Shown here one piece after another: positions 1,929 to 52,226 of a stretch of 53,728 nt of DNA. The stretch's first letter is position 1. The number at the start of each line of letters is the position of its first letter. The position numbers were made by a program, and so were the translations under genes. The stretch lies in sequence record PV733669.1, one strand, 5' to 3'. Source of the stretch: Escherichia phage ES2-BCU-3. A model generated the notes under the pieces. The model was given only the letters and a program-made list of their open reading frames with translations. It did not search any database and was not told the DNA's origin.

Positions 1929-2043
1929 AACCGGATAAATATAAAGGCGTCTAGGTAGTCCTTATATAGATGTAAGCTACTTATTCGCCTTCCTACTGTA
2001 GACCTCCTCCTTATCTCTTTAGACATCCCAGATTCATCTCTTG

Positions 2044-2072
2044 TTTACATATCCTTTCTACCTCGTTATAAT
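2044..2072 (+). promoter_or_regulatory. Sigma70-like promoter (TTTACA-17-TATAAT)
   Basis: TTTACA at 2044..2049 and TATAAT at 2067..2072 with 17-nt spacer; -10/start region flanked by inverted repeat cctcgt(2061)/acgagg(2091). Confidence 0.55.
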
Positions 2073-2104
2073 CCGAGCTATCCGGATTGACGAGGACAAT
2101 ATCC

Positions 2105-5418: not shown

Positions 5419-5447
5419 TTTACTTTATGCTTACTGGGTTATATAAT
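5419..5447 (+). promoter_or_regulatory. Sigma70-like promoter (TTTACT-17-TATAAT)
   Basis: TTTACT 5419..5424, TATAAT 5442..5447; followed by the structured GC-rich leader 5455..5529. Confidence 0.45.
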
Positions 5448-5591
5448 CCGTTTTGTCAACCGCGCAACAGCCGGCCACGAGAGTCTGCAGGGCTCAGTGG
5501 ATTTCGGATGGCTGGCTGCGCGGTTTGACCCAAACCTGTTCGGAGCCCACTTGAGTGGATTGAGCCCCTCTCATATAGGATTGAAAATATT

Positions 5592-6308
5592 ATGGCACTT
5601 AAAACAGTTGTAACTGACCTGAACGAAATTGACGAAGGCTTCCGTGGCCTGTACGTCAAAGACGATGCTTCTGGTGCGTACCGTCTGGACGTTGAGCCTG
5701 ACGAGAAAACCACCAAAGAGCTGGAAGAGCTGCGCAAAGAAAAACAGCGTATGGAACAGCACACCAAAAAGCTTCTCGAAGAAAAGAAAAAAGAAGCTGA
5801 ACGTGCTCGTCTGGCTGAAGAAGAACGTGCTCGCCGCGACCGTGACGTTGAGTCGCTGGAACGTTCTCTGCGTGAAAAGCACCAGGCTGACATCGAAAAT
5901 GCGAACAGTCGCACAGCATTACTGCAGGCGCAACTCGAAAGCCAAATGGTTGATAACCTGGCAATGCGTCTGGCAAACGAACTCTCTGACACACCAGCAC
6001 TGATTATGCCGCACATCAAATCTCGACTGCGCGCTCAAGAGATTGATGGTAAGTGGCGTACCTCTGTTGTTGATGTCATGGGTAACCCGACTGCTACCAC
6101 GCCGGATGAGCTCGTTGAGCACATGCGCGCTGATAAGCAGTTTGCACCTCTTGTGCGTGGAACCAAGGCTGGCGGTGGCGGTGCCAACGGCGGCGGAGCT
6201 AATCCTGGTGGGAACGGCAATGGTGAACAACAGCACTCCTTTGGGGGCGGGGACGACCGCGTAGCACGTGCTCGTGCTAAAATTCAAAATACTCAATGGG
6301 GCAAATAA
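5592..6308 (+). CDS. Scaffolding protein (putative)
   Basis: Charged, coiled-coil-rich 238-aa protein between portal and capsid genes; Gly-rich C-terminal segment. Confidence 0.5.
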   Translation: MALKTVVTDLNEIDEGFRGLYVKDDASGAYRLDVEPDEKTTKELEELRKEKQRMEQHTKKLLEEKKKEAERARLAEEERARRDRDVESLERSLREKHQADIENANSRTALLQAQLESQMVDNLAMRLANELSDTPALIMPHIKSRLRAQEIDGKWRTSVVDVMGNPTATTPDELVEHMRADKQFAPLVRGTKAGGGGANGGGANPGGNGNGEQQHSFGGGDDRVARARAKIQNTQWGK

Positions 6309-7308: not shown

Positions 7309-7340
7309 AAAAGGCGTGCTGACGAGCACGCCTTTTTTAT
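7309..7340 (+). terminator. Rho-independent terminator
   Basis: Stem ggcgtgct(7313..7320), loop gacg, stem agcacgcc(7325..7332), then TTTTTTAT. Confidence 0.8.
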
Positions 7341-7368
7341 TTACAGCAATAAAGTTCTGGTGTATAAT
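7340..7368 (+). promoter_or_regulatory. Sigma70-like promoter with extended -10 (TTTACA-17-TGtTATAAT)
   Basis: TTTACA 7340..7345; TG at 7361..7362; TATAAT 7363..7368. Confidence 0.55.
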
Positions 7369-9838: not shown

Positions 9839-12795
9839 TGCATACATTGATAATGAAGAATGCTGACCATCGAGCTAATGTTGAAAGCATTATCGAAGGT
9901 CACCATCACTTCTTAGAACGCAATACGGGCAGAACTGACGACGCTACAAAACAACACTATGTCTTTAACCCAGAAGGCATAGTGTCAAACAACCGTCACT
10001 TCATTGCCCATACAATGATGGAGTATCAACCTAATGGTGATGCTCCGTCTGAGAGTCAGTCTCTGCTGATTCTGGGAGAAGTCCATGCTTACCTGGCTAC
10101 TAAGGAACAGCGATACCTCGATAAAGCTATTGAGTACTTCGACGCATACGTTAAGTATTATTACGAGGGCGACCCTATTCCAGATACACCAAGGCGCTGG
10201 ATTGCTAACTGGCTTTGTAACGGCAAAGAACCAGTGCTTGCTAATTTCCCTATTAATGATTCGCAGCCAACTCAGGGCGGCTACAAGAACGTACCAATAC
10301 GTTTTGTTAATGGGAAGGCTATGGTGCCTCAGGGCTCTCCTTTTTGGGGCGAGTATATGGATGTGGCGACATGGGCTCACCGCGGACACATGGCGTGGCC
10401 TGCTATTAACGGTGGCGTACGTGCTATACAAGATACCGTAGACTGGGATGATATTTACGATAACTATCGTATAACCACTATGCCTGCTAATCCTGCAGAC
10501 CAGTTAGCATGGATTGATTGGCCGCGCTATCTTGGTAAACCGTCGTACACAGTCGACTGGTCTTCTCCTGAACCTCCGTTGCAGCTGATAGAATATATTG
10601 TTGCATGGACTGGCGACAGAATCGGTGTACTGCCAGGTAAGAACGACGAGCTATGGGGTGGTGAGATTCTGGAATCTGGTTTACCTGACTCACGTAAAGG
10701 TGAGATTCAGCTTCGTGACCATACTGTCAATGGGGTTTACCTGCTCAACTACTCTGTTAAGCTGCCAGTCGATAAAGGTGGTTACTTACTGAAGCGTAAT
10801 GAGGTATGGCACAACCGTCCTATTAACGTTCCGCTTCATGGCGAACTGCAACGTGGTAACGCTGCTGACGCCGAGCTCTGGTTCTGTGACTGTTGCTATA
10901 TGCTGTGGCGCATTACTAACGAGCAAAAGTATTATAACGCATGGCAAGCTGTACTATTTACTTTGGAGGAATATCTTGACATCGACAGACAAGACCAGTT
11001 CTTCCGACAAGACCCGTCTGCGTCTTCGCCATTCACTGATGGCATTTCTTACGACTGGTCTTATCCAGAAGAAGCACAAGCTCTGTACTCTCGCGATGCT
11101 AATGGGTATATTGATTTACGTCAAAATGAGATTGCTCAGTCATCACTTGAGCAGCAAGCTGTCTGGTTTAAAGTAAAACCAAGTGCGAAGATTCGTACTG
11201 AAACAGGCGGTCTTGACGATGCTGGTGGTAACATTAGCGTTAAGGTTGAGATGTACATGAACCGTGAGAAAGTCGATGTCGATGCAAACATCTATCGTTT
11301 TGTGGCTCAGCTTCCACCTCTGGCAGCTACACCCACAAACTATGACATTCCGCTCAGTGACTTCGTTGCTGGACAGAAAGGTGATGGTTCTGAGTATATC
11401 CTTGCTGATATACGAGCTGCTGTTGATTATGGGAATACAGTAGTCCGTCAGGTATATCGCACTGACATTCTCGATAATCGTCGCGGTAACACTATTCAGT
11501 TCACTATCCCAGACGGTTCGTCTGGTGGTATTATCGGTTTCTGGTTGCTGGAGTCTTCACGTTCTCCTTTAACTGGTTTAACCTATACATCCACAGGTCC
11601 GCTGTTGCTTAAAGCGACTGACGACCAGGGTTGGAACTGGGAACGTCCATTACCTGCCGCAGGTGGCTGGACAAGTATAACTATCAAGAACAGCGACTTT
11701 ACTTTGGCGTCATACCAGGAGAATCCTGGTACACCTGGTAAAGACCATCCTACGTGGACGGACATACCGCAGTTCTCTTTTGTACTGCCTGACGGAGTAG
11801 AGACTAGCACAATGCTAAGCTACTACTGTGTCAACGATGTTCCTCCTCGTTATGACTGGGACATTGGCTACACAATCAAGTATCGCTTAACGTTCTCTGC
11901 TGAGCATCCATACTTGGTTAAACTTGGTGACTGTACAGTTATTGATTATGAGCCTGACAACCTGGCGTACGTGCCTGGGTTAGTTCCGTTCTCAAACATC
12001 TATAACACGGAATCACAGCAGTTCGATGGCTGGCATGGTATGCCTTACCCTGGCTACCAATACCCATTCATCTTTACGCATGATGATACAGCTGTTGGTG
12101 CTAAGCGAATGGAGAACATGACTAACTTCTTGTACGACTCTCAGCAGTGGTACTTTAAGCGGTTTGGTCAGTTAGGTCCTGGCGCCTCAGCTTACATCTG
12201 GAACCGTTGGGATAACTTCAAGTATGGCGTTGCTGATACTTTCACTATGTATCACTGGGGGAACGGTAGTGCTTGGTCTGGTTATCAGCCTCGTGCTTAC
12301 TTCAGTGCTGCACGTGCTGTTTACGAGATGAAGAATCGCGGTAAGACACCACCTGCGAAACTTGTCAAGTACGTAGAGAACTGGACAACTTGGTTACTCG
12401 ACTTTATGGAACGGTCTGGCGGTGTGTCACCTACTAACTTCCCTCAGGAAGGTGTAGCAATGCCTGACCCTACTGACTTCACTGGTCACATGTGTGGCTT
12501 GTGGCTGGCAGGCGCATCTATGGATGCCCTTTGTGGGTCGAGTGTTAAAGGCGTTGAACGACTGATGGACCTGCTTGTTAATGAGCTGGAAGACCATTAT
12601 GATATTACCGGAGTACCTGGTCATATTATGGATGGCGGATGGTCGCCAGCTTTACGACTGAGTACTGGTTCAGGTCCTGAAAGCAATGCGATGTATTTCG
12701 GATTCTATTCAGGTGAGATTCTTCGCGGGTTAAGTTTGTACCTGCTGTACAAAAATAAAGGCGTCGGGGCAGATATTTACGACCTGGGCAAATAA
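9826..12795 (+). CDS. Large virion-associated protein of unknown function (989 aa)
   Basis: Longest ORF in the window, between head-completion and Ig-like genes; Trp/Tyr/Asp-rich; an alternative in-frame ATG at 9838 makes a TAATG junction. Confidence 0.6.
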   Translation: MGWLMHTLIMKNADHRANVESIIEGHHHFLERNTGRTDDATKQHYVFNPEGIVSNNRHFIAHTMMEYQPNGDAPSESQSLLILGEVHAYLATKEQRYLDKAIEYFDAYVKYYYEGDPIPDTPRRWIANWLCNGKEPVLANFPINDSQPTQGGYKNVPIRFVNGKAMVPQGSPFWGEYMDVATWAHRGHMAWPAINGGVRAIQDTVDWDDIYDNYRITTMPANPADQLAWIDWPRYLGKPSYTVDWSSPEPPLQLIEYIVAWTGDRIGVLPGKNDELWGGEILESGLPDSRKGEIQLRDHTVNGVYLLNYSVKLPVDKGGYLLKRNEVWHNRPINVPLHGELQRGNAADAELWFCDCCYMLWRITNEQKYYNAWQAVLFTLEEYLDIDRQDQFFRQDPSASSPFTDGISYDWSYPEEAQALYSRDANGYIDLRQNEIAQSSLEQQAVWFKVKPSAKIRTETGGLDDAGGNISVKVEMYMNREKVDVDANIYRFVAQLPPLAATPTNYDIPLSDFVAGQKGDGSEYILADIRAAVDYGNTVVRQVYRTDILDNRRGNTIQFTIPDGSSGGIIGFWLLESSRSPLTGLTYTSTGPLLLKATDDQGWNWERPLPAAGGWTSITIKNSDFTLASYQENPGTPGKDHPTWTDIPQFSFVLPDGVETSTMLSYYCVNDVPPRYDWDIGYTIKYRLTFSAEHPYLVKLGDCTVIDYEPDNLAYVPGLVPFSNIYNTESQQFDGWHGMPYPGYQYPFIFTHDDTAVGAKRMENMTNFLYDSQQWYFKRFGQLGPGASAYIWNRWDNFKYGVADTFTMYHWGNGSAWSGYQPRAYFSAARAVYEMKNRGKTPPAKLVKYVENWTTWLLDFMERSGGVSPTNFPQEGVAMPDPTDFTGHMCGLWLAGASMDALCGSSVKGVERLMDLLVNELEDHYDITGVPGHIMDGGWSPALRLSTGSGPESNAMYFGFYSGEILRGLSLYLLYKNKGVGADIYDLGK

Positions 12796-12801
12796 CGACT
12801 A

Positions 12802-12830
12802 TTTACATGGTTGAAGCGCCAGCTTATAAT
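12802..12830 (+). promoter_or_regulatory. Sigma70-like promoter (TTTACA-17-TATAAT) with -10 inside a palindrome
   Basis: TTTACA 12802..12807, TATAAT 12825..12830; 8-bp perfect inverted repeat gcgccagc(12816..12823)/gctggcgc(12833..12840) brackets the -10. Confidence 0.55.
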
Positions 12831-12864
12831 AGGCTGGCGCACATCCAATAAGAGGATTCTCCAG

Positions 12865-13506
12865 ATGGCAAATCGCACAACCGCTAACCGTCCTATCGAA
12901 GACGCAGACCTGCGTCAGGAAGAGGTTACGCAGTTCCCGCCAGCTAAACCGACTAAGCTCGATGAGAATGGCAAGTTCATTCCTACGCCGGTTACTGGCA
13001 TCACTGTAACACCTGATACCGCCAGCTTGCTGGTAGGTGAGTTCAAAACTCTTACCGGTACCATTGCGCCTGCTGACGCAGACGATGTTACTGTGCTGTG
13101 GTCGTCTGACGACGAAACCATCGCGACTGTTGACGGCTCAGGTCGTGTGCAGGGTATTAAAGTTGGCTCTGCAACTATCACGGCTAAGTCCAAACTGGAC
13201 CCAACCAAAACTGATACTGCAGCTATCACCGTTACAACTCCGCCTGTTGCAGTTACCGGCGTTACTGTTGCTCCTAAGACCGCCACGCTTTCCCTGGCAG
13301 GTACTAAGACTCAGCAGCTGACTCCTACCATTGCACCGGCTAACGCTACCAACAAAGCCGTGACCTATACCTCCAGCGACGCGACAGTAGCATCTGTCAA
13401 CTCTTCTGGTCTGGTAACTGGTCTGAAAGAAGGTACAGCGACCATCACTGTTAAAACCACTGATGGCAACAAAACTGATACCTGCGCTGTAACCGTTACC
13501 GCGTAA
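12865..13506 (+). CDS. Ig-like (BIG2-type) domain protein
   Basis: Repeated ~80-aa units with TVTP...A...TxTA...P..A....V.W.SSD..(I/V)ATVD pattern; ATG 12865 with AGAGGA 8 nt upstream. Confidence 0.6.
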   Translation: MANRTTANRPIEDADLRQEEVTQFPPAKPTKLDENGKFIPTPVTGITVTPDTASLLVGEFKTLTGTIAPADADDVTVLWSSDDETIATVDGSGRVQGIKVGSATITAKSKLDPTKTDTAAITVTTPPVAVTGVTVAPKTATLSLAGTKTQQLTPTIAPANATNKAVTYTSSDATVASVNSSGLVTGLKEGTATITVKTTDGNKTDTCAVTVTA

Positions 13507-13518
13507 CAGGAGCATACG

Positions 13519-15393
13519 ATGTCGCTTCCACTTAATGAGGTTGTCGACGTCCAGTTCAGCAAAAGCAACGGGGGTAAAGGTTTTACCCCCGAAGTAAAGC
13601 TGAAGGGTATATGGGCGAGCAGATACCTTTACGAAATGCTGTCGAATGATAGCCGCGTATTAATCGGTATCATGTACGACCCTGCTGATGCAACTAACAA
13701 GGGCATGACCTGGAAGTCAAGTAAGCCTCTTGTCGTAACTGTAGATGCCGAAGGCTATGTTACACCAGTGTCTGCTGGTGAAGCATTTGTAACTGGCACA
13801 TCAGACGATGGTGGTTTTACTGTTGTGATTCGGTTTATTATAACCAAAGCACCTGTGCCTGTTACTGATGTTACTGTTACACCCACAAGTCTCTTGCTTG
13901 AGGTAGGTGCTACCGGTCAACTCAGTTTCACTTACTTGCCAGCTGACGCAGACGACCTCAACTTCTCATGGCAGACTGATAACCCTGCGATAGCTACTGT
14001 TGATACAAACGGTAAAGTTACAGCTGTTGCGCCTGGGTCTACTGTCGTAACCCTTTTCTATTCTGCAAGCGTATATGATACGTGTGCAGTAACTGTGATT
14101 CCGCCTACTGTGCATGTTACCAGCGTACAGTTTGATACTCAGGAACCACTAAACGTAAACATCGGTAACACTGAAGAAACCGAGATAACTGTTTTACCGG
14201 CTAACGCTACTGACAAATCTGTTACGTACAAAAGCAGTGACACGGCTATTGCCACTGTCGATGCTGATGGCAAGGTAACAGGTGTAGCAGCAGGTAACGC
14301 AACAATAACTGTGACTACTACTGACGGTGCGAAGACTGACACCTTGGCTGTTGTTGTTAAGGTTCCTGTTGTTCCTGTCACTGGTGTTACTATTGACGAA
14401 GGTTCTACAGCTAGCATGACTGTTGGAGACACTCTTCAACTTCACGCAACTGTTGCACCTGCTAACGCAACAAACAAAAACGTGTCATGGCAATCGTCAG
14501 CACCTTCTGTGGCTACTGTAGGTTCTGCTGGTTTGGTAACAGCAGTTGCAGGCGGAAGTGCTAACGTAACTGTTACGACAGAAGATGGTAGTTTTACTGC
14601 TACTATCGGAATAAGTGTTGGTGTTCCTGTAGTTCATCCTACAGGTGTAACCATCGACCAGGGTGATGCTGCAGATGTTGTTAAAGGTACAACCTTACAG
14701 CTAACAGCCACAGTCGCCCCGGCTGATGCAACCAATAAAGCTGTCACTTGGTCTTCTGCCACACCTGCCAATGCGACAGTAGATTCAAATGGACTTGTGA
14801 CTGGTATTGCTTTTGGTACCTCTGTCATTACTGTCACTACTGTTGACGGTGGAAAGACAGATACCATTACAATTACTGTACCGTCACCCGCTAGCTTAAC
14901 GACGGACTCGTTCCCGAGTAACCTACTTGTGGGTAACAAGGTACAACTGACGTATACGACAAACCCGCCAAACTCGCCGTTGACTGATATTGCTTACTCA
15001 TCGTCAGATGAGACTATTGCGACTGTCGACTCTACGGGTCTGGTAACCATGTTAGCAGAAGGAAGTGCCACTATTAACATGAGTGCTAAGTCGTATGGTG
15101 AGGCAGTTAGTGACGGGTCTGGTATGTACCCTGTAACATTAAGTGTGCACACCGATTCGTTACCTTCGTTGGCAGTAGGTGCAACACAAAGTCTTGTTGT
15201 TTCAACTACTCCATCCTGGGCCTTAACTGACCCAGCAAGTACGGTCGAGTATACTACGACAGACGCCACTGTGGCAACTGTCGATACTACAGGCCTGATA
15301 ACTGGCGTCGCCTCCGGTGGTTGTAGGATAGGTGCGACAGTAAAAAATGGACTGGTAGAAGCATCTGATAGTTCCTATCAATCAGTTGACTAA
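13519..15393 (+). CDS. Ig-like domain repeat protein (about five tandem BIG2-like domains)
   Basis: Same domain pattern repeated; AGGAG upstream of ATG 13519. Confidence 0.6.
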   Translation: MSLPLNEVVDVQFSKSNGGKGFTPEVKLKGIWASRYLYEMLSNDSRVLIGIMYDPADATNKGMTWKSSKPLVVTVDAEGYVTPVSAGEAFVTGTSDDGGFTVVIRFIITKAPVPVTDVTVTPTSLLLEVGATGQLSFTYLPADADDLNFSWQTDNPAIATVDTNGKVTAVAPGSTVVTLFYSASVYDTCAVTVIPPTVHVTSVQFDTQEPLNVNIGNTEETEITVLPANATDKSVTYKSSDTAIATVDADGKVTGVAAGNATITVTTTDGAKTDTLAVVVKVPVVPVTGVTIDEGSTASMTVGDTLQLHATVAPANATNKNVSWQSSAPSVATVGSAGLVTAVAGGSANVTVTTEDGSFTATIGISVGVPVVHPTGVTIDQGDAADVVKGTTLQLTATVAPADATNKAVTWSSATPANATVDSNGLVTGIAFGTSVITVTTVDGGKTDTITITVPSPASLTTDSFPSNLLVGNKVQLTYTTNPPNSPLTDIAYSSSDETIATVDSTGLVTMLAEGSATINMSAKSYGEAVSDGSGMYPVTLSVHTDSLPSLAVGATQSLVVSTTPSWALTDPASTVEYTTTDATVATVDTTGLITGVASGGCRIGATVKNGLVEASDSSYQSVD

Positions 15394-15419
15394 CCAGGCA
15401 ATAAACATTTTCTTGGCCA

Positions 15420-15448
15420 TTTACACAGACTTTATTCCTGTGTATAAT
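15420..15448 (+). promoter_or_regulatory. Sigma70-like promoter with extended -10 (TTTACA-17-TGtTATAAT)
   Basis: TTTACA 15420..15425; TGTGTATAAT 15439..15448. Confidence 0.55.
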
Positions 15449-15480
15449 GGCCGGAAAGTCCACCCCATGAGGTAAACAAG

Positions 15481-16620
15481 ATGCCGTTGAATGTCAACCA
15501 GATTGTCAACGTTCAACTGAACAACACGCCGACTGGTATCAGCAAAGGTGACTTCGGTAAACTGGCTCTCCTGACTCAGGACCCAGGCACTGCATTCCCT
15601 GATGGTGACAATGGTCACTATGTTGAAATCTCTCAAATCTCAGAAGCTAATGCTTACTGGGGTACAGGCTCTGTTGTCATTGAAGCGTTAAAAGTATTCT
15701 TTGCACAAAGCCCGCGTCCTAAGTCGGTAGTCATCGGCTCATGGGACCCGGACGGTACTCTCGAAGACGCGCTGAACTCGTTCAACGACGCTTACCCTAA
15801 CTGGTACGTTGTTCGTCCGCTTCCGCCAACTGCTCAGCTCACTGCTGACGAGCTTACCGCACTGGCCGGCGCAGTAGCTGCATACGACAAAAAGCGTATG
15901 AGCTATACCACGCTGAACGCTGCAGACATCGAAAACTCTGACACCAACAAGATTAAAATTCTTGCTGGCAAAGGTTACGATAATATGTGGCTGCAGTACG
16001 ACAAGAACAACCAGAAGTACGCTGACATCTCCGCGATGGCCCGCGCACTGTCTGTTAACTTCTCAGGTAACCGCACAACGATTACCATGAAGTTTAAACA
16101 AGAGCCTGGCATTACGCCGAACAACACTCTGACGCTGACTGAAGCGAATAAGTGTAAAGCTCTGGGCATTAACTGGTACACCTACTACAGCACGTTTGCG
16201 ATGCTGGCTGAAGGTACTGTTCTCGGTACTTCCAACCCGCCACGCTTCTGGGATGAAGTGCACGGCCTGGACTGGTTCTGTAACGCTGTTCAGACCTATG
16301 TCTTCAACGCCCTGGCTACGTCACCCACGAAGGTGCCGCAGACTAACAAAGGTCACGAGCGCCTTACTGGTGCTGCAGCTGTTGCATGTCAGCAGGCTGT
16401 GGACAATGGTCTGGTTGCACCTGGCATCTGGTATGGCGATGAGTTCGGTACGCTGTCTTATGGCGACCGTCTGGAAACTGGCTTCTACATCTATATCCCT
16501 GATGTTGATGACCAGCCTCTGGAAGAGCGTGAGAAACGTGAAGCAGTTGTGATGCAGATTGCAATCAAACTGGCTGGCGCTATCCACTCTAGCGACATCC
16601 TCATCAACTTCACACGTTAA
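15481..16620 (+). CDS. Tail sheath protein (putative)
   Basis: 379-aa ORF with its own promoter, directly upstream of a tube-sized gene, chaperone and tape measure. Confidence 0.45.
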   Translation: MPLNVNQIVNVQLNNTPTGISKGDFGKLALLTQDPGTAFPDGDNGHYVEISQISEANAYWGTGSVVIEALKVFFAQSPRPKSVVIGSWDPDGTLEDALNSFNDAYPNWYVVRPLPPTAQLTADELTALAGAVAAYDKKRMSYTTLNAADIENSDTNKIKILAGKGYDNMWLQYDKNNQKYADISAMARALSVNFSGNRTTITMKFKQEPGITPNNTLTLTEANKCKALGINWYTYYSTFAMLAEGTVLGTSNPPRFWDEVHGLDWFCNAVQTYVFNALATSPTKVPQTNKGHERLTGAAAVACQQAVDNGLVAPGIWYGDEFGTLSYGDRLETGFYIYIPDVDDQPLEEREKREAVVMQIAIKLAGAIHSSDILINFTR

Positions 16621-17517: not shown

Positions 17518-17560
17518 AAACCAGTCAGGGACGCAAGAAACTGACTGGTTTATTTGGTTG
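17518..17560 (+). terminator. Hairpin / possible intrinsic terminator
   Basis: 11-bp perfect stem aaaccagtcag(17518..17528)/ctgactggttt(17541..17551) with 12-nt loop, followed by a T-rich tract. Confidence 0.5.
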
Positions 17561-26734: not shown

Positions 26735-26742
26735 GTTATTGA

Positions 26743-26780
26743 TGCCAGCAAGCTTAATCAGTTGCTGGCATATTTCTTTT
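26743..26780 (+). terminator. Rho-independent terminator
   Basis: Stem tgccagcaa(26743..26751)/ttgctggca(26762..26770), 10-nt loop, then TATTTCTTTT. Confidence 0.65.
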
Positions 26781-26801
26781 GGCAAACAATCGTGCTATAA
26801 T
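26773..26801 (+). promoter_or_regulatory. Promoter with extended -10 (TGcTATAAT), weak -35
   Basis: TG 26793..26794 and TATAAT 26796..26801 about 30 nt upstream of the holin RBS. Confidence 0.4.
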
Positions 26802-28132: not shown

Positions 28133-28147
28133 GGGCCCTTTATTTTA
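28118..28147. terminator. Bidirectional rho-independent terminator between convergent genes
   Basis: Stem aaagggccc(28118..28126)/gggcccttt(28133..28141), 6-nt loop, flanked by A- and T-runs; the o-spanin stop codon (28130..28132) lies in the loop. Confidence 0.75.
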
Positions 28148-28369
28148 TCGCTTGGCTTTGCGTTCGTTAAAGTTGGCGCAGTGAGAACAAAGTACTGTAC
28201 CGGCAATCAGCTCACGACGCTTTGACTCAATAGGTTCGCCACACTGATAACAATCAATAGGACTCACACCTTTATATTGCACGCGACTTGCTATTGCTGC
28301 ATCACGTGCAATCTGCTCAGCATCCGATGCCATATCGTTAACGTCTGAAGTGCGGGTAGTCTCAATCAT
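28145..28369 (-). CDS. DksA/TraR-type C4 zinc-finger protein
   Basis: 74 aa with CYQC...(17)...CSHC near the C-terminus, the TraR/DksA zinc-finger spacing. Confidence 0.5.
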   Translation of the reverse strand: MIETTRTSDVNDMASDAEQIARDAAIASRVQYKGVSPIDCYQCGEPIESKRRELIAGTVLCSHCANFNERKAKR

Positions 28370-33570: not shown

Positions 33571-33600
33571 GCACTTTTTTATATTCGGGTAAAAGAAAAA

Positions 33601-33624
33601 GGACCAGCGCAAACTGGTCCTTTT
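33601..33624 (-). terminator. Rho-independent terminator (works on either strand)
   Basis: Stem ggaccag(33601..33607)/ctggtcc(33614..33620), loop cgcaaa; minus-strand reading is followed by TTTTTCTTTT. Confidence 0.7.
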
Positions 33625-48034: not shown

Positions 48035-48342
48035 TTTTTCCGGCGGAGGCAATGCATATAATCATATATTTGAATATATATCACTTAAACCTTTGTTTTA
48101 TATACTCTTTTCGAATCCATAATCCATATAGCTTTCTTTAAATAATTAAGGGGGTAATAAGGGTACACAAGACCAGATAAAGGGGTAGATATTATTATTT
48201 ATTTATTATATATATTATATATATTTATATATTAGATAAAGAGTAAGTAAAACAGCTACTTAGAAGGCTAGAATCCATATTCACGGGAATATAGTTATAT
48301 GGATTACAGACCGGATAAAGAAAATCCTCCGCCGGCGGAAAA
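48035..48342. other. AT-rich block bounded by inverted repeats (candidate replication origin)
   Basis: Inverted repeats tttttccggcggagg(48035..48049) and cctccgccggcggaaaa(48326..48342); a 45-bp run of only A/T (48191..48235); internal aatccatat/atatggatt inverted repeats; two AGGGGTA direct repeats. Confidence 0.45.
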
Positions 48343-48379
48343 TTTAAAAAAGTCGGATTGCTAAATAAATTCGTAGACG

Positions 48380-48408
48380 TTTACACTGTGATTAATATGT
48401 AGTACAAT
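48380..48408 (+). promoter_or_regulatory. Sigma70-like promoter (TTTACA-17-TACAAT)
   Basis: TTTACA 48380..48385; TACAAT 48403..48408. Confidence 0.45.
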
Positions 48409-50048: not shown

Positions 50049-50275
50049 ACACCACCATAACTTTGGATTTGTACACAAAAACTTCTGAAATTGTGAAGAG
50101 GAATATCGTCACAATTAATGAAGTATTGACCAGTTAAAGATTTCAAACCAAACCGCACATAACCTTTGTTAAGGTTGAGACGCACAATCTCACAAAATAA
50201 ATCATATGCGCCCAATTCCTGAACTTTTGGATGATTGATGTCTGGGTTAAAGTCAATCAGCATTTCTACTTTCAT
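50039..50275 (-). CDS. Hypothetical protein
   Basis: ATG at 50275 with AGGAG RBS (track ORF starts at TTG 50302). Confidence 0.5.
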   Translation of the reverse strand: MKVEMLIDFNPDINHPKVQELGAYDLFCEIVRLNLNKGYVRFGLKSLTGQYFINCDDIPLHNFRSFCVQIQSYGGVCH

Positions 50276-50296
50276 GTTTCTTCTCCTGTTGAATAA

Positions 50297-50347
50297 TTTC
50301 AATCATGAACTATCGCAACTTTGATAGTTCATTGTTGAAACTATTGC
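50297..50347 (-). promoter_or_regulatory. Conserved-flank intergenic hairpin (early operon element 3)
   Basis: Minus strand reads TAG-TTTCAACA-[ATGAACTATC...GATAGTTCAT]-GATTGAAA; 10-bp stem 50305..50314/50323..50332. Confidence 0.5.
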
Positions 50348-51455: not shown

Positions 51456-51501
51456 TCCAATCATGACAACTTTGGTAAGTTGTCATTGTTGGAAATTACT
51501 C
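51456..51501 (-). promoter_or_regulatory. Conserved-flank intergenic hairpin (early operon element 5)
   Basis: Minus strand reads GAGTAA-TTTCCAACA-[ATGACAACTT-ACCA-AAGTTGTCAT]-GATTGGA; stem 51464..51472/51477..51485; a second palindrome ttgtcaa/ttgacaa lies at 51433..51451. Confidence 0.5.
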
Positions 51502-51966: not shown

Positions 51967-52226
51967 GTTGATAGTGGTTCTCGATTACAATTGATATAGT
52001 TACTCGAGTAATCACTTCGTTTGAAATGGTCGGCAGGGGTTATAGTTACATAGGGGTGCTATCTAATAGGGCCGGCGAAATTATTTATAAAAATATAATT
52101 TCAATCTGAATTGTAGACGCTTTGAACTACTTCGGCCGAAACTGCTACACGGGTAATAGTTACTCTGGTAATGATTGCGTTGGTAATAGTTCACAACGAA
52201 ATAGGGTGCGGGGGGTATAATCACTC
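51967..52226. repeat. Iteron-like array of about 13-bp direct repeats (consensus GGTAATAGTTACTC)
   Basis: Copies at 51993..52005 (gatatagttactc), 52039..52049 (gttatagttac), 52152..52165 (ggtaatagttactc), 52182..52194 (ggtaatagttcac); degenerate copies at 51967, 52006, 52167, 52214; inverted copy at 51707..51715; AT-rich tract 52081..52100. Confidence 0.55.

What the first reader, a model, noticed from the sequence alone, without database searches (positions are those of the whole stretch)
12802..12840. Late promoter family TTTACA-N17-TATAAT, one with its -10 inside a perfect 8-bp palindrome
Near-consensus promoters precede the packaging, head and tail blocks (2044, 5419, 7340, 12802, 15420, 48380), several with extended -10 TG. 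At 12816..12840 the -10 hexamer is the loop of gcgccagc/gctggcgc, and at 2061..2096 a 6-bp inverted repeat brackets the -10 and start site. These may be operator or attenuator structures controlling late timing in a phage that lacks its own RNA polymerase.
Basis: partly seen in the sequence, partly recalled or inferred. Interest (0 to 1): 0.4.

Follow-up and report, generated by a model that had tools for sequence, protein, structure and literature searches.

The report
Conserved hairpin wrapped around a phage promoter
A Salmonella phage's structural genes carry five conserved host-type promoters that were already annotated, and the palindrome around one -10 box is a real, evolutionarily maintained stem-loop that most likely acts on RNA read through from upstream rather than as a repressor site.

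Summary
The window is a Loughboroughvirus myophage (99.6% ZCSE2). TTTACA-N17-TATAAT occurs exactly 4 times against 0.02 expected, and the 8-bp palindrome at 12816-12840 is real. The claimed extended -10 TG is absent at all six sites. Site 48380 precedes a resolvase gene near the genome end, not a structural block.

The promoters are not new: the S144 GenBank record annotates all six as predictions, and the BP63 record three. Five sites (2044, 5419, 7340, 12802, 15420) persist as TTTAC[A/T]-N17-TATAAT in every relative down to Erwinia phage SOI901.

What is new is that the P4 palindrome is under selection:
- Six stem variants keep pairing through compensatory changes.
- The loop is always 9 nt.
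- 94% of cells pair, against at most 45% in slid controls.
- It is unique in the genome and followed by no U-tract, and no DNA-binding regulator was detected.

So operator and attenuator readings are disfavoured.

Best reading: stem-loops that form only in read-through RNA. The P4 function remains unproven. Modest interest.

The parts
2044..2072 (+). P1: TTTACA-N17-TATAAT promoter before the small-terminase-like gene (ATG at 2105)
   Evidence: Exact match. Kept as TTTAC[A/T]-N17-TATAAT in BP63, SE4, SOI901, fHy-Eco03, KE26 and SE1_KM. Annotated as a predicted promoter in S144.
2061..2095 (+). P1 anti-SD stem. CCTCGT (2061-2066, directly 5' of the -10) pairs with ACGAGG (2090-2095, which overlaps the Shine-Dalgarno GAGGA). 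The stem encloses the -10, the predicted start site and a small inner hairpin.
   Evidence: RNAalifold consensus in 5 lineages. 92% of cells pair, against at most 55% in slid controls, with U-G variants but no double changes. P about 0.024 per site from the window alone.
5419..5447 (+). P2: TTTACT-N17-TATAAT promoter before the scaffold and major capsid genes
   Evidence: Conserved in all lineages. Annotated in S144.
5454..5592 (+). Conserved structured leader downstream of P2
   Evidence: Nearly identical in phages whose coding DNA is about 75% identical. MFE -54.7 kcal/mol, z = -3.1. No Rfam match at E<=1. The core 23-mer occurs only in this clade in IMG/VR.
7309..7336 (+). Intrinsic terminator after the major capsid gene. 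Its T-tract runs directly into the -35 of P3.
   Evidence: 12-bp stem plus T-tract. Five pairs carry double compensatory changes across lineages.
7340..7368 (+). P3: TTTACA-N17-TATAAT promoter before the head-tail adaptor gene
   Evidence: Annotated in S144 and BP63.
12802..12830 (+). P4: TTTACA-N17-TATAAT promoter before the Ig-domain tail protein gene (ATG at 12865)
   Evidence: The -35 and -10 are invariant while the spacer varies in 14 distinct sequences. Annotated in S144 and BP63.
12816..12840 (+). P4 palindrome or stem-loop: arms 12816-12823 and 12833-12840, with a 9-nt loop that holds the -10 hexamer
   Evidence: Six stem variants retain pairing. Pair 7 is C-G, U-A or A-U and pair 3 is A-U or U-A. 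93.8% of cells pair, against at most 45% in slid controls. 0 of 500 shuffles reach the covariation score. RNA fold of the gap: -26.8 kcal/mol, z = -5.1. Unique in the genome.
15413..15454 (+). P5 hairpin: a consensus 15-bp imperfect stem-loop that encloses the whole P5 promoter. In the window it extends to 15407-15459, about 21 bp.
   Evidence: RNAalifold consensus. 92.8% of cells pair, against at most 43% in slid controls, and 4 pairs carry double changes. The sense fold is more stable than the antisense fold in 9 of 9 lineages. z = -3.75.
15420..15448 (+). P5: TTTACA-N17-TATAAT promoter before the tail sheath gene
   Evidence: Annotated in S144.
48380..48408 (+). TTTACA-N17-TACAAT promoter before a RusA/PDDEXK-type resolvase gene. 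It is not part of the morphogenesis set.
   Evidence: Conserved promoter, non-conserved inverted repeat. Next to the fHy-Eco03 left terminal repeat start. Pfam PF24608 on the downstream ORF.
26742..26801 (+). Terminator (26742-26771 plus T-tract) followed by an extended -10 promoter (TG at 26793-26794, TATAAT at 26796-26801) before the lysis cassette
   Evidence: Sequence. Same layout with a different stem in SE1_KM.
28145..28369 (-). 74-aa DksA/TraR-type zinc-finger protein. It is the only recognisable transcription factor candidate.
   Evidence: PF01258, E = 1.2e-6, above the gathering score. Annotated as ORF38 in S144.

Best explanation
The morphogenesis block is read from a chain of five conserved promoters for the host sigma-70 polymerase: P1 2044, P2 5419, P3 7340, P4 12802 and P5 15420. 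A sixth, extended -10 promoter sits before the lysis genes. All of these lie on one strand, so polymerases started at one promoter can transcribe across the next. The sequence that is a promoter in DNA is then also an intercistronic segment in the longer RNA.

Evolution has placed an RNA element in each such segment:
- P3 and the lysis promoter: a true terminator directly upstream.
- P1: an anti-Shine-Dalgarno stem.
- P4 and P5: stable stem-loops with no U-tract.

The P4 palindrome is the stem of one of these. In read-through RNA it forms GCGCCAGC/GCUGGCGC, with UAUAAU in the loop, 20 nt after the upstream stop codon. RNA started at P4 begins inside the 3' arm (predicted start about 12837) and cannot form it.

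The most likely role is post-transcriptional. It would act as a 3' exonuclease barrier or processing boundary that sets the stability of the upstream tail-gene message. It may also act as a 5' cap-like hairpin on the processed downstream message.

At P1 the same geometry sequesters the ribosome-binding site, so the terminase gene would be translated only from P1-started RNA.

Shown: the promoter motifs, their conservation, the covarying stems, the strand bias at P5, and the absence of a U-tract and of other copies of the palindrome.

Inferred: the start sites, the existence of read-through transcription, RNA rather than DNA as the acting molecule at P4, and the stabiliser function.
For: Promoters:
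- 4 exact matches against 0.02 expected.
- All five sites are kept as TTTAC[A/T]-N17-TATAAT in 7 or more lineages, down to 75% sheath identity.

P4 stem:
- Compensatory changes at two pairs, a constant 9-nt loop, and 93.8% of cells paired against at most 45% in slid controls. 0 of 500 shuffles reach the covariation score.
- The arms are invariant in 10 Rosemountvirus genomes whose flanks vary.
- z = -5.1.

P5:
- An independently predicted 15-bp consensus hairpin in which U-G is the commonest pair at three positions.
- The sense fold is more stable than the antisense fold in 9 of 9 lineages.

Other gaps:
- P3 terminator with 5 covarying pairs.
- P1 anti-SD pairing in 5 of 5 lineages.
- Both hairpins start 14-20 nt after the upstream stop codon, clear of a terminating ribosome.
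- T4 precedent for a promoter inside a hairpin specific to read-through RNA (PMC3014915).

Against the DNA-protein alternative: the site is unique and no DNA-binding regulator was detected.
Against: - The P4 stem is almost purely Watson-Crick and shows no strand bias: sense -16.0 against antisense -16.7 kcal/mol. Nothing at P4 itself separates RNA from DNA.
- The constant 9-nt spacing, despite a 1-nt shift relative to the -10, is what a DNA-binding dimer would also require.
- The P4 stem does not touch the Shine-Dalgarno sequence, so the T4 mechanism does not transfer to it.
- Why the -10 should always be the loop is explained only by gap compaction.
- No transcript data exist for this phage group in the held library. 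Read-through, start sites and 3' ends are therefore all unmeasured.
- Only six independent stem variants exist, so the covariation rests on roughly three substitution events.
- In SPHG1 the hairpin is lost together with the promoter and the downstream gene, not kept with the upstream gene.
Confidence: 0.45

Rival explanations
1. DNA-level operator. The palindrome binds a dimeric phage or host protein that occludes the -10 and holds P4 off until late in infection.
For: - A perfect inverted repeat straddles the -10.
- Symmetric, two-sided changes are what a co-evolving dimer site would show.
- The 9-bp spacing between arms is constant despite the register shift.
- There is no strand bias.
Against: - Only one copy exists in 53.7 kb. 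The next-best matches have 2 or more mismatches and lie inside genes.
- None of the other four late promoters carries it.
- Pfam found no DNA-binding domain in 30 small early or middle proteins, and the S144 annotation lists none.
- The half-site cores are 16 bp apart, about 1.5 turns, which places them on opposite faces of the helix (from the sequence).
Confidence: 0.13
2. DNA structural switch. Under negative supercoiling or during replication the palindrome extrudes as a cruciform or hairpin. This puts the -10 in a single-stranded loop and so couples P4 firing to DNA topology.
For: - The palindrome is centred on the -10 and both strands can fold: DNA hairpins of -11.2 and -10.8 kcal/mol.
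- Pairing is conserved on both strands.
- An engineered E. coli promoter with a palindromic -10 region has been described as regulated by cruciform extrusion (Horwitz and Loeb 1988; from memory, not checked).
Against: - Arms of 8 bp with a 9-nt loop are short and loop-heavy for extrusion. This is an inference from general cruciform energetics and was not computed here.
- The phage DNA is packaged as a linear molecule with long terminal repeats in fHy-Eco03, so torsional constraint is uncertain.
- P5, the companion element, is biased to the sense strand through G-U pairs, which argues for RNA.
Confidence: 0.1
3. Attenuator or terminator. The hairpin stops or pauses polymerases coming from P3, so that the downstream tail genes depend on P4.
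For: - A GC-rich 8-11 bp stem lies 20 nt after a stop codon.
- Real terminators sit in the equivalent place at P3 and before the lysis genes.
Against: - No U-tract follows the stem in any of the six lineage variants. The following sequences are ACAUCC, ACCCAA, GCAACC, CUUAAC and CAACUA.
- The terminator scan does not call it.
Confidence: 0.1
4. Promoter-kinetics element without structure. The two GC-rich blocks act as clamps around the AT-rich -10, that is, a GC-rich spacer end and a GC-rich discriminator. They would tune open-complex lifetime, possibly in concert with the phage TraR/DksA-like protein. On this reading the symmetry is incidental.
For: - All five late-block promoters have G/C-rich first discriminator bases (CCG, CCG, CGG, AGG, GGC), whereas ten other candidates are more AT-rich.
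- The phage encodes a TraR/DksA zinc-finger protein.
- GC-rich discriminators mark promoters inhibited by DksA/ppGpp, and TraR mimics that effect (PMC9304144).
Against: - Incidental symmetry does not predict complementary double substitutions (C-G to U-A to A-U; A-U to U-A) or 94% pairing across lineages.
- The other four promoters lack a GC-rich spacer end.
Confidence: 0.07

Closest known systems
T4 genes e, soc, 49 and I-TevI: a late promoter embedded in an RBS-sequestering hairpin (review PMC3014915)
   Same: The promoter lies inside the DNA that encodes the 5' strand of an RNA stem. Long upstream-started RNAs can therefore fold, while promoter-started RNAs lack the 5' arm. P1 (2061-2095) matches in geometry, with the Shine-Dalgarno sequence in the 3' arm.
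   Different: The promoters here are sigma-70 type (TTTACA-N17-TATAAT), not the gp55-dependent TATAAATA. At P4 and P5 the stems do not include the Shine-Dalgarno sequence or the start codon, so translational masking cannot be their function.
Intercistronic mRNA stem-loops acting as 3' exonuclease barriers or processing boundaries in polycistronic bacterial and phage mRNAs (general knowledge)
   Same: Stable GC-rich hairpins without a U-tract, placed 14-20 nt after a stop codon and between cistrons with different expression needs. Conserved by pairing rather than by sequence.
   Different: Here the hairpin shares its nucleotides with a functional-looking promoter. At P4 the -10 hexamer is the loop. 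At P5 the -35 pairs with the -10 region.
Predicted host-type promoters annotated in the Salmonella phage S144 (MT663719) and BP63 (NC_031250) records
   Same: The same sites. S144 annotates all six, and BP63 annotates the homologues of 7340, 12802 and 48380. PMC7432712 reports 18 predicted host promoters and no phage RNA polymerase.
   Different: Those annotations are software predictions. They make no comparative analysis and do not mention the palindrome, the P5 hairpin or the P1 anti-SD pairing.
Cruciform-regulated promoter with a palindromic -10 region (Horwitz and Loeb 1988; from memory, not checked here)
   Same: An inverted repeat centred on the -10 hexamer of a sigma-70 promoter.
   Different: That case was an engineered or mutant promoter with a palindrome suited to extrusion. 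Here the arms are 8 bp and the loop 9 nt, and no structural probing exists.
Phage N4 early promoters: DNA hairpins recognised by the virion RNA polymerase (from memory)
   Same: Promoter function tied to a short GC-rich hairpin.
   Different: N4 hairpins have 5-7 bp stems with 3-nt loops and need a virion RNA polymerase. This phage has none, and its motif is a standard -35/-10 pair.

Membership tests
Sigma-70 (host housekeeping) promoter | -35 hexamer close to TTGACA and -10 hexamer close to TATAAT | tested here: met
   TTTACA or TTTACT (5 or 4 of 6) and TATAAT (6 of 6) at P1-P5, scoring 10-11 of 12.
Sigma-70 (host housekeeping) promoter | Spacer of 17 +/- 1 bp | tested here: met
   Exactly 17 bp at all five sites in all lineages examined.
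Sigma-70 (host housekeeping) promoter | Intergenic position, co-oriented with a downstream gene that has an RBS | tested here: met
   All five lie in gaps of 70-180 bp upstream of an SD and a start codon.
Sigma-70 (host housekeeping) promoter | Hexamers conserved while spacer and flanks diverge | tested here: met
   Alignments A1 and A4 and the tables: the hexamers are invariant and the spacers differ.
Sigma-70 (host housekeeping) promoter | Transcript 5' ends about 7 nt downstream of the -10, and holoenzyme-dependent initiation | not testable with these tools
   No transcript data for this phage group in the held library.
Extended -10 (TGn) promoter | TG at -15/-14, one base upstream of the -10 hexamer | tested here: not met
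   The TG column reads 'no' for all six sites. It is met only at the lysis promoter, TGCTATAAT at 26793-26801.
Temporally 'late' promoter class | Sequence signature restricted to late genes | tested here: inconclusive
   TTTAC[A/T] with exactly 17 bp and a GC-rich discriminator is restricted to the morphogenesis block. TTTAC[C/G]-N17/18-TATAAT also occurs before replication and early genes. The sample is small.
Temporally 'late' promoter class | Delayed activity during infection | not testable with these tools
   Needs time-resolved RNA data.
T4-type promoter-in-hairpin translational gate | Stem sequesters the Shine-Dalgarno sequence and/or the start codon | tested here: met
   P1 only: CCUCGU pairs with ACGAGG, which overlaps the SD, in 5 of 5 lineages. 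Not met at P4, where the stem ends at 12840 and the SD is at 12850-12856. Not met at P5.
T4-type promoter-in-hairpin translational gate | Promoter-started RNA lacks the 5' arm | tested here: inconclusive
   True if transcription starts about 7 nt after the -10, since the 5' arms lie upstream of the -10 at P1 and P4. The start sites are predicted, not measured.
T4-type promoter-in-hairpin translational gate | Upstream-initiated transcripts read through the site | not testable with these tools
   Upstream genes are co-oriented and no canonical terminator was called between 1928 and 2044. There are no RNA data.
Intrinsic (Rho-independent) terminator | GC-rich stem followed directly by a U-tract | tested here: not met
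   The stem is present, but no lineage has a U-tract after the P4 or P5 hairpin. The feature is met at 7309-7336 and 26742-26780.
Palindromic operator of a dimeric repressor | Inverted repeat overlapping core promoter elements | tested here: met
   12816-12840 straddles the -10.
Palindromic operator of a dimeric repressor | Cognate DNA-binding protein encoded, and usually more than one site | tested here: not met
   Single site. Pfam found no DNA-binding domain in 30 small ORFs. A novel fold cannot be excluded.
Cruciform-forming inverted repeat | Long arms and a short spacer that allow extrusion at physiological supercoiling | tested here: inconclusive
   Arms 8 bp (11 of 12 if extended) and loop 9 nt (or 1). 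DNA hairpins about -11 kcal/mol each.

The most novel reading that the evidence does not exclude
The P4 palindrome works in DNA, not RNA. It would be a conserved, covarying hairpin or cruciform that exposes or hides the -10 hexamer in a single-stranded loop. A host-type promoter would then fire only when phage DNA reaches a particular topological or replicative state. That would be a protein-free timing switch for late genes in a phage with no polymerase or sigma factor of its own.
Probability: 0.1. Interest if true: 0.7.

Novelty: new variant of a known kind. Interest (0 to 1): 0.35.

Why it matters
The promoters themselves add nothing, because they are already annotated as predictions in S144 and BP63.

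The useful result is comparative. In this group of therapeutic-candidate Salmonella and E. coli phages (Loughboroughvirus, Rosemountvirus and relatives), every internal promoter of the structural block is fused to a conserved RNA-level element: a terminator, an anti-SD stem or a plain stem-loop. This gives a concrete, testable map of how a phage without its own polymerase could separate read-through messages from promoter-started messages.

If the P4 and P5 stems prove to be stability or processing boundaries, the result extends the T4 'promoter inside a hairpin' idea from translational masking to message partitioning. If instead they act in DNA, it would be a rare natural case of a structure-gated sigma-70 promoter.

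Tried and rejected
1. Family-wide '-10 in a palindrome': tested on 15 promoter candidates against genome background. Only P4 stands out.
2. Inverted repeat at 48380 (GTGATTA/TAATCAC): not conserved in BP63, SOI901, KE26 or fHy-Eco03. Rejected as chance.
3. Operator regulon: no second copy of the palindrome at 1 mismatch or fewer. The only other GCCAGC...GCTGGC stem is the lysis-gap terminator. Its stem differs in SE1_KM, so there is no shared recognition motif.
4. Search for a phage DNA-binding regulator: three Pfam scans of 30 small ORFs found only a TraR/DksA zinc finger.
5. Rfam: no family hit in the whole window at gathering score, nor in the P2 leader at E<=1.
6. Metagenome scan with a sheath-protein profile: only one close relative was added. 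IMG/VR added one more. Below about 75% sheath identity the next relatives are at 39% and lack the promoter motif altogether.
7. SPHG1 as a natural deletion: the promoter, the hairpin and the Ig gene are all replaced together, so it is uninformative.
8. Literature search for transcriptomes of this phage group: none found.
9. RNase III site idea for P5 (about 21 bp in the window): the consensus stem is only 15 bp and no test was possible, so it remains a sub-possibility.
10. Strand-asymmetry test: informative for P5, uninformative for P4.

Full report
**Identity of the window.** Region 12000-16000 is 99.6% identical to Salmonella phage ZCSE2 and 99.1% identical to S144 (Loughboroughvirus). It is about 75% identical to the many Rosemountvirus phages such as BP63. 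Window coordinates equal S144 coordinates plus 6311. The plus-strand block from about 2.1 to 28 kb encodes packaging, head, tail, baseplate and lysis functions. The minus-strand block encodes replication functions.

**Check of the observation.**
- TTTACA-N17-TATAAT occurs exactly at 2044, 7340, 12802 and 15420. That is four matches against 0.02 expected, and no shuffle reaches four.
- 5419 is TTTACT-N17-TATAAT and 48380 is TTTACA-N17-TACAAT.
- At 12816-12840 the sequence is GCGCCAGC-TTATAATAG-GCTGGCGC, as reported. The repeat finder extends it to 12+12 nt with one mismatch.
- The 6-bp repeat at P1 is CCTCGT 2061-2066 and ACGAGG 2090-2095.
- Two sub-claims fail. None of the six sites has a TGn extended -10. 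Site 48380 precedes a RusA/PDDEXK-type resolvase gene, not a structural block.

**Not new as promoters.** The S144 GenBank record annotates all six sites as promoters predicted by PhagePromoter. The BP63 record annotates the homologues of 7340, 12802 and 48380. The S144 paper reports 18 predicted host-type promoters and no phage RNA polymerase. It suggests that a DksA-like protein may control later genes (PMC7432712). No transcriptome of this phage group is in the held library.

**The five morphogenesis promoters are strongly conserved.** I examined these relatives:
- BP63, SE4, Erwinia phage SOI901, fHy-Eco03, KE26 and SE1_KM, where all five gaps were fetched;
- a viral contig (L009) and a metagenome contig (L025), where only some of the gaps were available.

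In every gap examined, the site carries TTTAC[A/T], exactly 17 bp of spacer, and TATAAT, while spacers and flanks diverge. The third base of the -35 is T in every case and never the consensus G. Below about 75% sheath identity the next relatives are at 39% and lack the motif. The five sites also share G/C-rich first discriminator bases (CCG, CCG, CGG, AGG, GGC), unlike ten other candidate promoters. Similar TTTAC[C/G]-N17/18-TATAAT sites stand before minus-strand genes. The family is therefore the phage's general host-type promoter, with a possible late sub-signature rather than a distinct late class.

**The P4 palindrome is under selection.** Fourteen distinct P4 sequences reduce to six stem types:

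| Lineage | 5' arm | 3' arm | Paired |
|---|---|---|---|
| window, Rosemountvirus | GCGCCAGC | GCTGGCGC | 8 bp |
| SE4 | ACGCCAGC | GCTGGCGC | 7 bp |
| fHy-Eco03, L009 | GTGCCTGC | GCAGGCAC | 8 bp |
| KE26, SE1_KM | TGCCAGC | GCTGGCA | 7 bp |
| SOI901, L025 | AGCCAGT | GCTGGCT | 6 bp plus one T-G |

- Pair 7 is C-G, U-A or A-U. Pair 3 is A-U or U-A.
- The loop is 9 nt in every type, although the hairpin shifts by 1 nt relative to the -10.
- On alignment A3, 93.8% of cells pair, against 19-45% when the partner is slid. Five cells carry double changes, and 0 of 500 shuffles reach the covariation score.
- The arms are invariant in ten Rosemountvirus genomes whose neighbouring positions vary.
- Caveat: the alignment was set in structural register by hand, and the independent substitution events number about three.

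**What the P4 palindrome is not.**
- It is not a family-wide feature. A tight repeat around the -10 occurs at 0.15% of background positions, and only at P4 among 15 candidates.
- It is not a terminator. No lineage has a U-tract after it, and the scan does not call it.
- It is unlikely to be an operator. It is unique in the genome. The conserved half-site cores are 16 bp apart, which puts them on opposite faces of the helix. Pfam finds no DNA-binding domain in 30 small early or middle proteins. The only hit is a 74-aa TraR/DksA zinc finger, a family that binds the polymerase secondary channel (PMC9304144).

**The neighbouring promoters give the context.**
- **P3:** immediately preceded by an intrinsic terminator whose stem shows five double compensatory changes. 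Its T-tract runs into the -35.
- **Lysis cassette:** preceded by a terminator plus an extended -10 promoter, a layout conserved with a different stem in SE1_KM.
- **P5:** lies inside a hairpin that RNAalifold predicts independently. It has 15 consensus pairs, 92.8% of cells paired against at most 43% in slid controls, and four pairs with double changes. U-G is the commonest pair at three positions. The sense strand folds better than the antisense strand in 9 of 9 lineages, at -21.6 against -16.8 kcal/mol. That points to sense RNA. Part of this stem is the built-in complementarity of TTTAC with GTA-AA of the -10 region, so not all of its pairs are independent evidence.
- **P1:** the six bases just 5' of the -10 pair with the Shine-Dalgarno region in 5 of 5 lineages. 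92% of cells pair, against at most 55% in slid controls, with U-G variants but no double changes because the SD side is fixed.
- **P2:** followed by a 140-nt leader that is almost invariant across the clade. Its MFE is -54.7 kcal/mol with z = -3.1, and it has no Rfam match.

**Mechanism.** In each case the 5' arm lies upstream of the predicted start site of the local promoter. The structure can therefore form only in RNA that reads through from an upstream promoter. For P1 this reproduces the T4 arrangement at genes e, soc, 49 and I-TevI. There, long early transcripts mask the ribosome-binding site, and late transcripts start inside the structure and are translated (PMC3014915). For P4 and P5 the SD is outside the stem, so masking is not the function. 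Both hairpins begin 14-20 nt after the upstream stop codon and lack U-tracts. That fits intercistronic stability or processing elements that share their sequence with the next promoter.

I put this reading at about 0.45. The P4 stem shows no strand bias, so DNA-level readings remain open: operator 0.13 and structural switch 0.10. An attenuator or pause role is at 0.10, and a pure promoter-kinetics role for the GC blocks is at 0.07.

**Other points.**
- The 48380 promoter is conserved, but its inverted repeat is not.
- It sits about 50 bp from the start of the 3.7-kb terminal repeat annotated in fHy-Eco03. It is therefore more likely an early promoter at the genome end.
- SPHG1 lacks the P4 promoter, the hairpin and the Ig gene together.

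**Verdict.** The promoters are already annotated. The palindrome is a real conserved stem-loop of uncertain function. The operator and attenuator interpretations are disfavoured for P4, while the P1 repeat fits a known late-gating device. Interest is modest.

Noticed in passing
window 5454-5592 (+): A 140-nt leader between P2 and the scaffold gene is almost invariant across phages whose coding DNA is about 75% identical. It folds into a long hairpin (MFE -54.7 kcal/mol, z = -3.1), has no Rfam match even at E<=1, and its core 23-mer is confined to this clade in IMG/VR. It is a candidate uncharacterised cis-regulatory RNA before the scaffold and major capsid genes.
   Followed up: partly
window 28145-28369 (-): A 74-aa DksA/TraR-type zinc-finger protein (PF01258) is the only recognisable transcription factor. 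The five morphogenesis promoters have G/C-rich discriminators, unlike other candidate promoters. This hints at class-specific control through the polymerase secondary channel.
   Followed up: partly
window 26742-26801 (+): Before the lysis cassette there is an intrinsic terminator (ATGCCAGCAA/TTGCTGGCAT plus a T-tract), followed by the only true extended -10 promoter of the block (TGCTATAAT, poor -35). The layout is conserved in SE1_KM with a different stem.
   Followed up: partly
window 48322-48345 and 48380-48408; L054 1-120: The annotated left physical end of fHy-Eco03 (start of a 3699-bp terminal repeat) falls inside the conserved CGCCGGCG palindrome, about 50 bp upstream of the 48380 promoter. 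Several relatives' records also start there. The genome termini of this phage probably lie near 48.33 kb of the window.
   Followed up: partly
window 1930-2040 (+): The gap upstream of the terminase promoter is conserved and contains repeated TAGAC/GTCTA motifs and an AAGGCG...CGCCTT stem, seen also in BP63, SOI901 and fHy-Eco03. It may be a packaging (pac-like) recognition region.
   Followed up: no
window 33597-33624 and 33570 (-): A minus-strand terminator (AAAAGGACCAG/CTGGTCCTTTT) has a T-tract that leads straight into a TTTACC-N17-TATAAT promoter. This is the same terminator-to-(-35) fusion as at P3.
   Followed up: no
window 259 (+), 45090 (+), 39851 (-), 34668 (-), 45095 (-), 51916 (-): TGTACA-N17/18-TATAAT (or TATACT) recurs on both strands. 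It may be a second -35 variant of the phage's promoters, or a chance effect of the palindromic hexamer.
   Followed up: no
window 17518-17551 (+): An 11-bp perfect inverted repeat (AAACCAGTCAG/CTGACTGGTTT, 12-nt loop) followed by TTATTTGGTT, in the 166-bp gap after the tail assembly chaperone gene. It could be terminator-like, or related to the chaperone frameshift region.
   Followed up: no
window 50078-50345, 51456-51493, 51984-52027: Several long imperfect inverted repeats (17-24 nt arms) lie in the AT-rich small-gene region and at the divergent promoter zone. They could be origin or regulatory sites.
   Followed up: no
L050 (Salmonella phage SPHG1) 1440-1880: In SPHG1 the P4 promoter, the palindrome and the Ig-domain protein gene are replaced by a 348-nt reverse-strand ORF directly after the tail protein stop codon.
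   Followed up: partly
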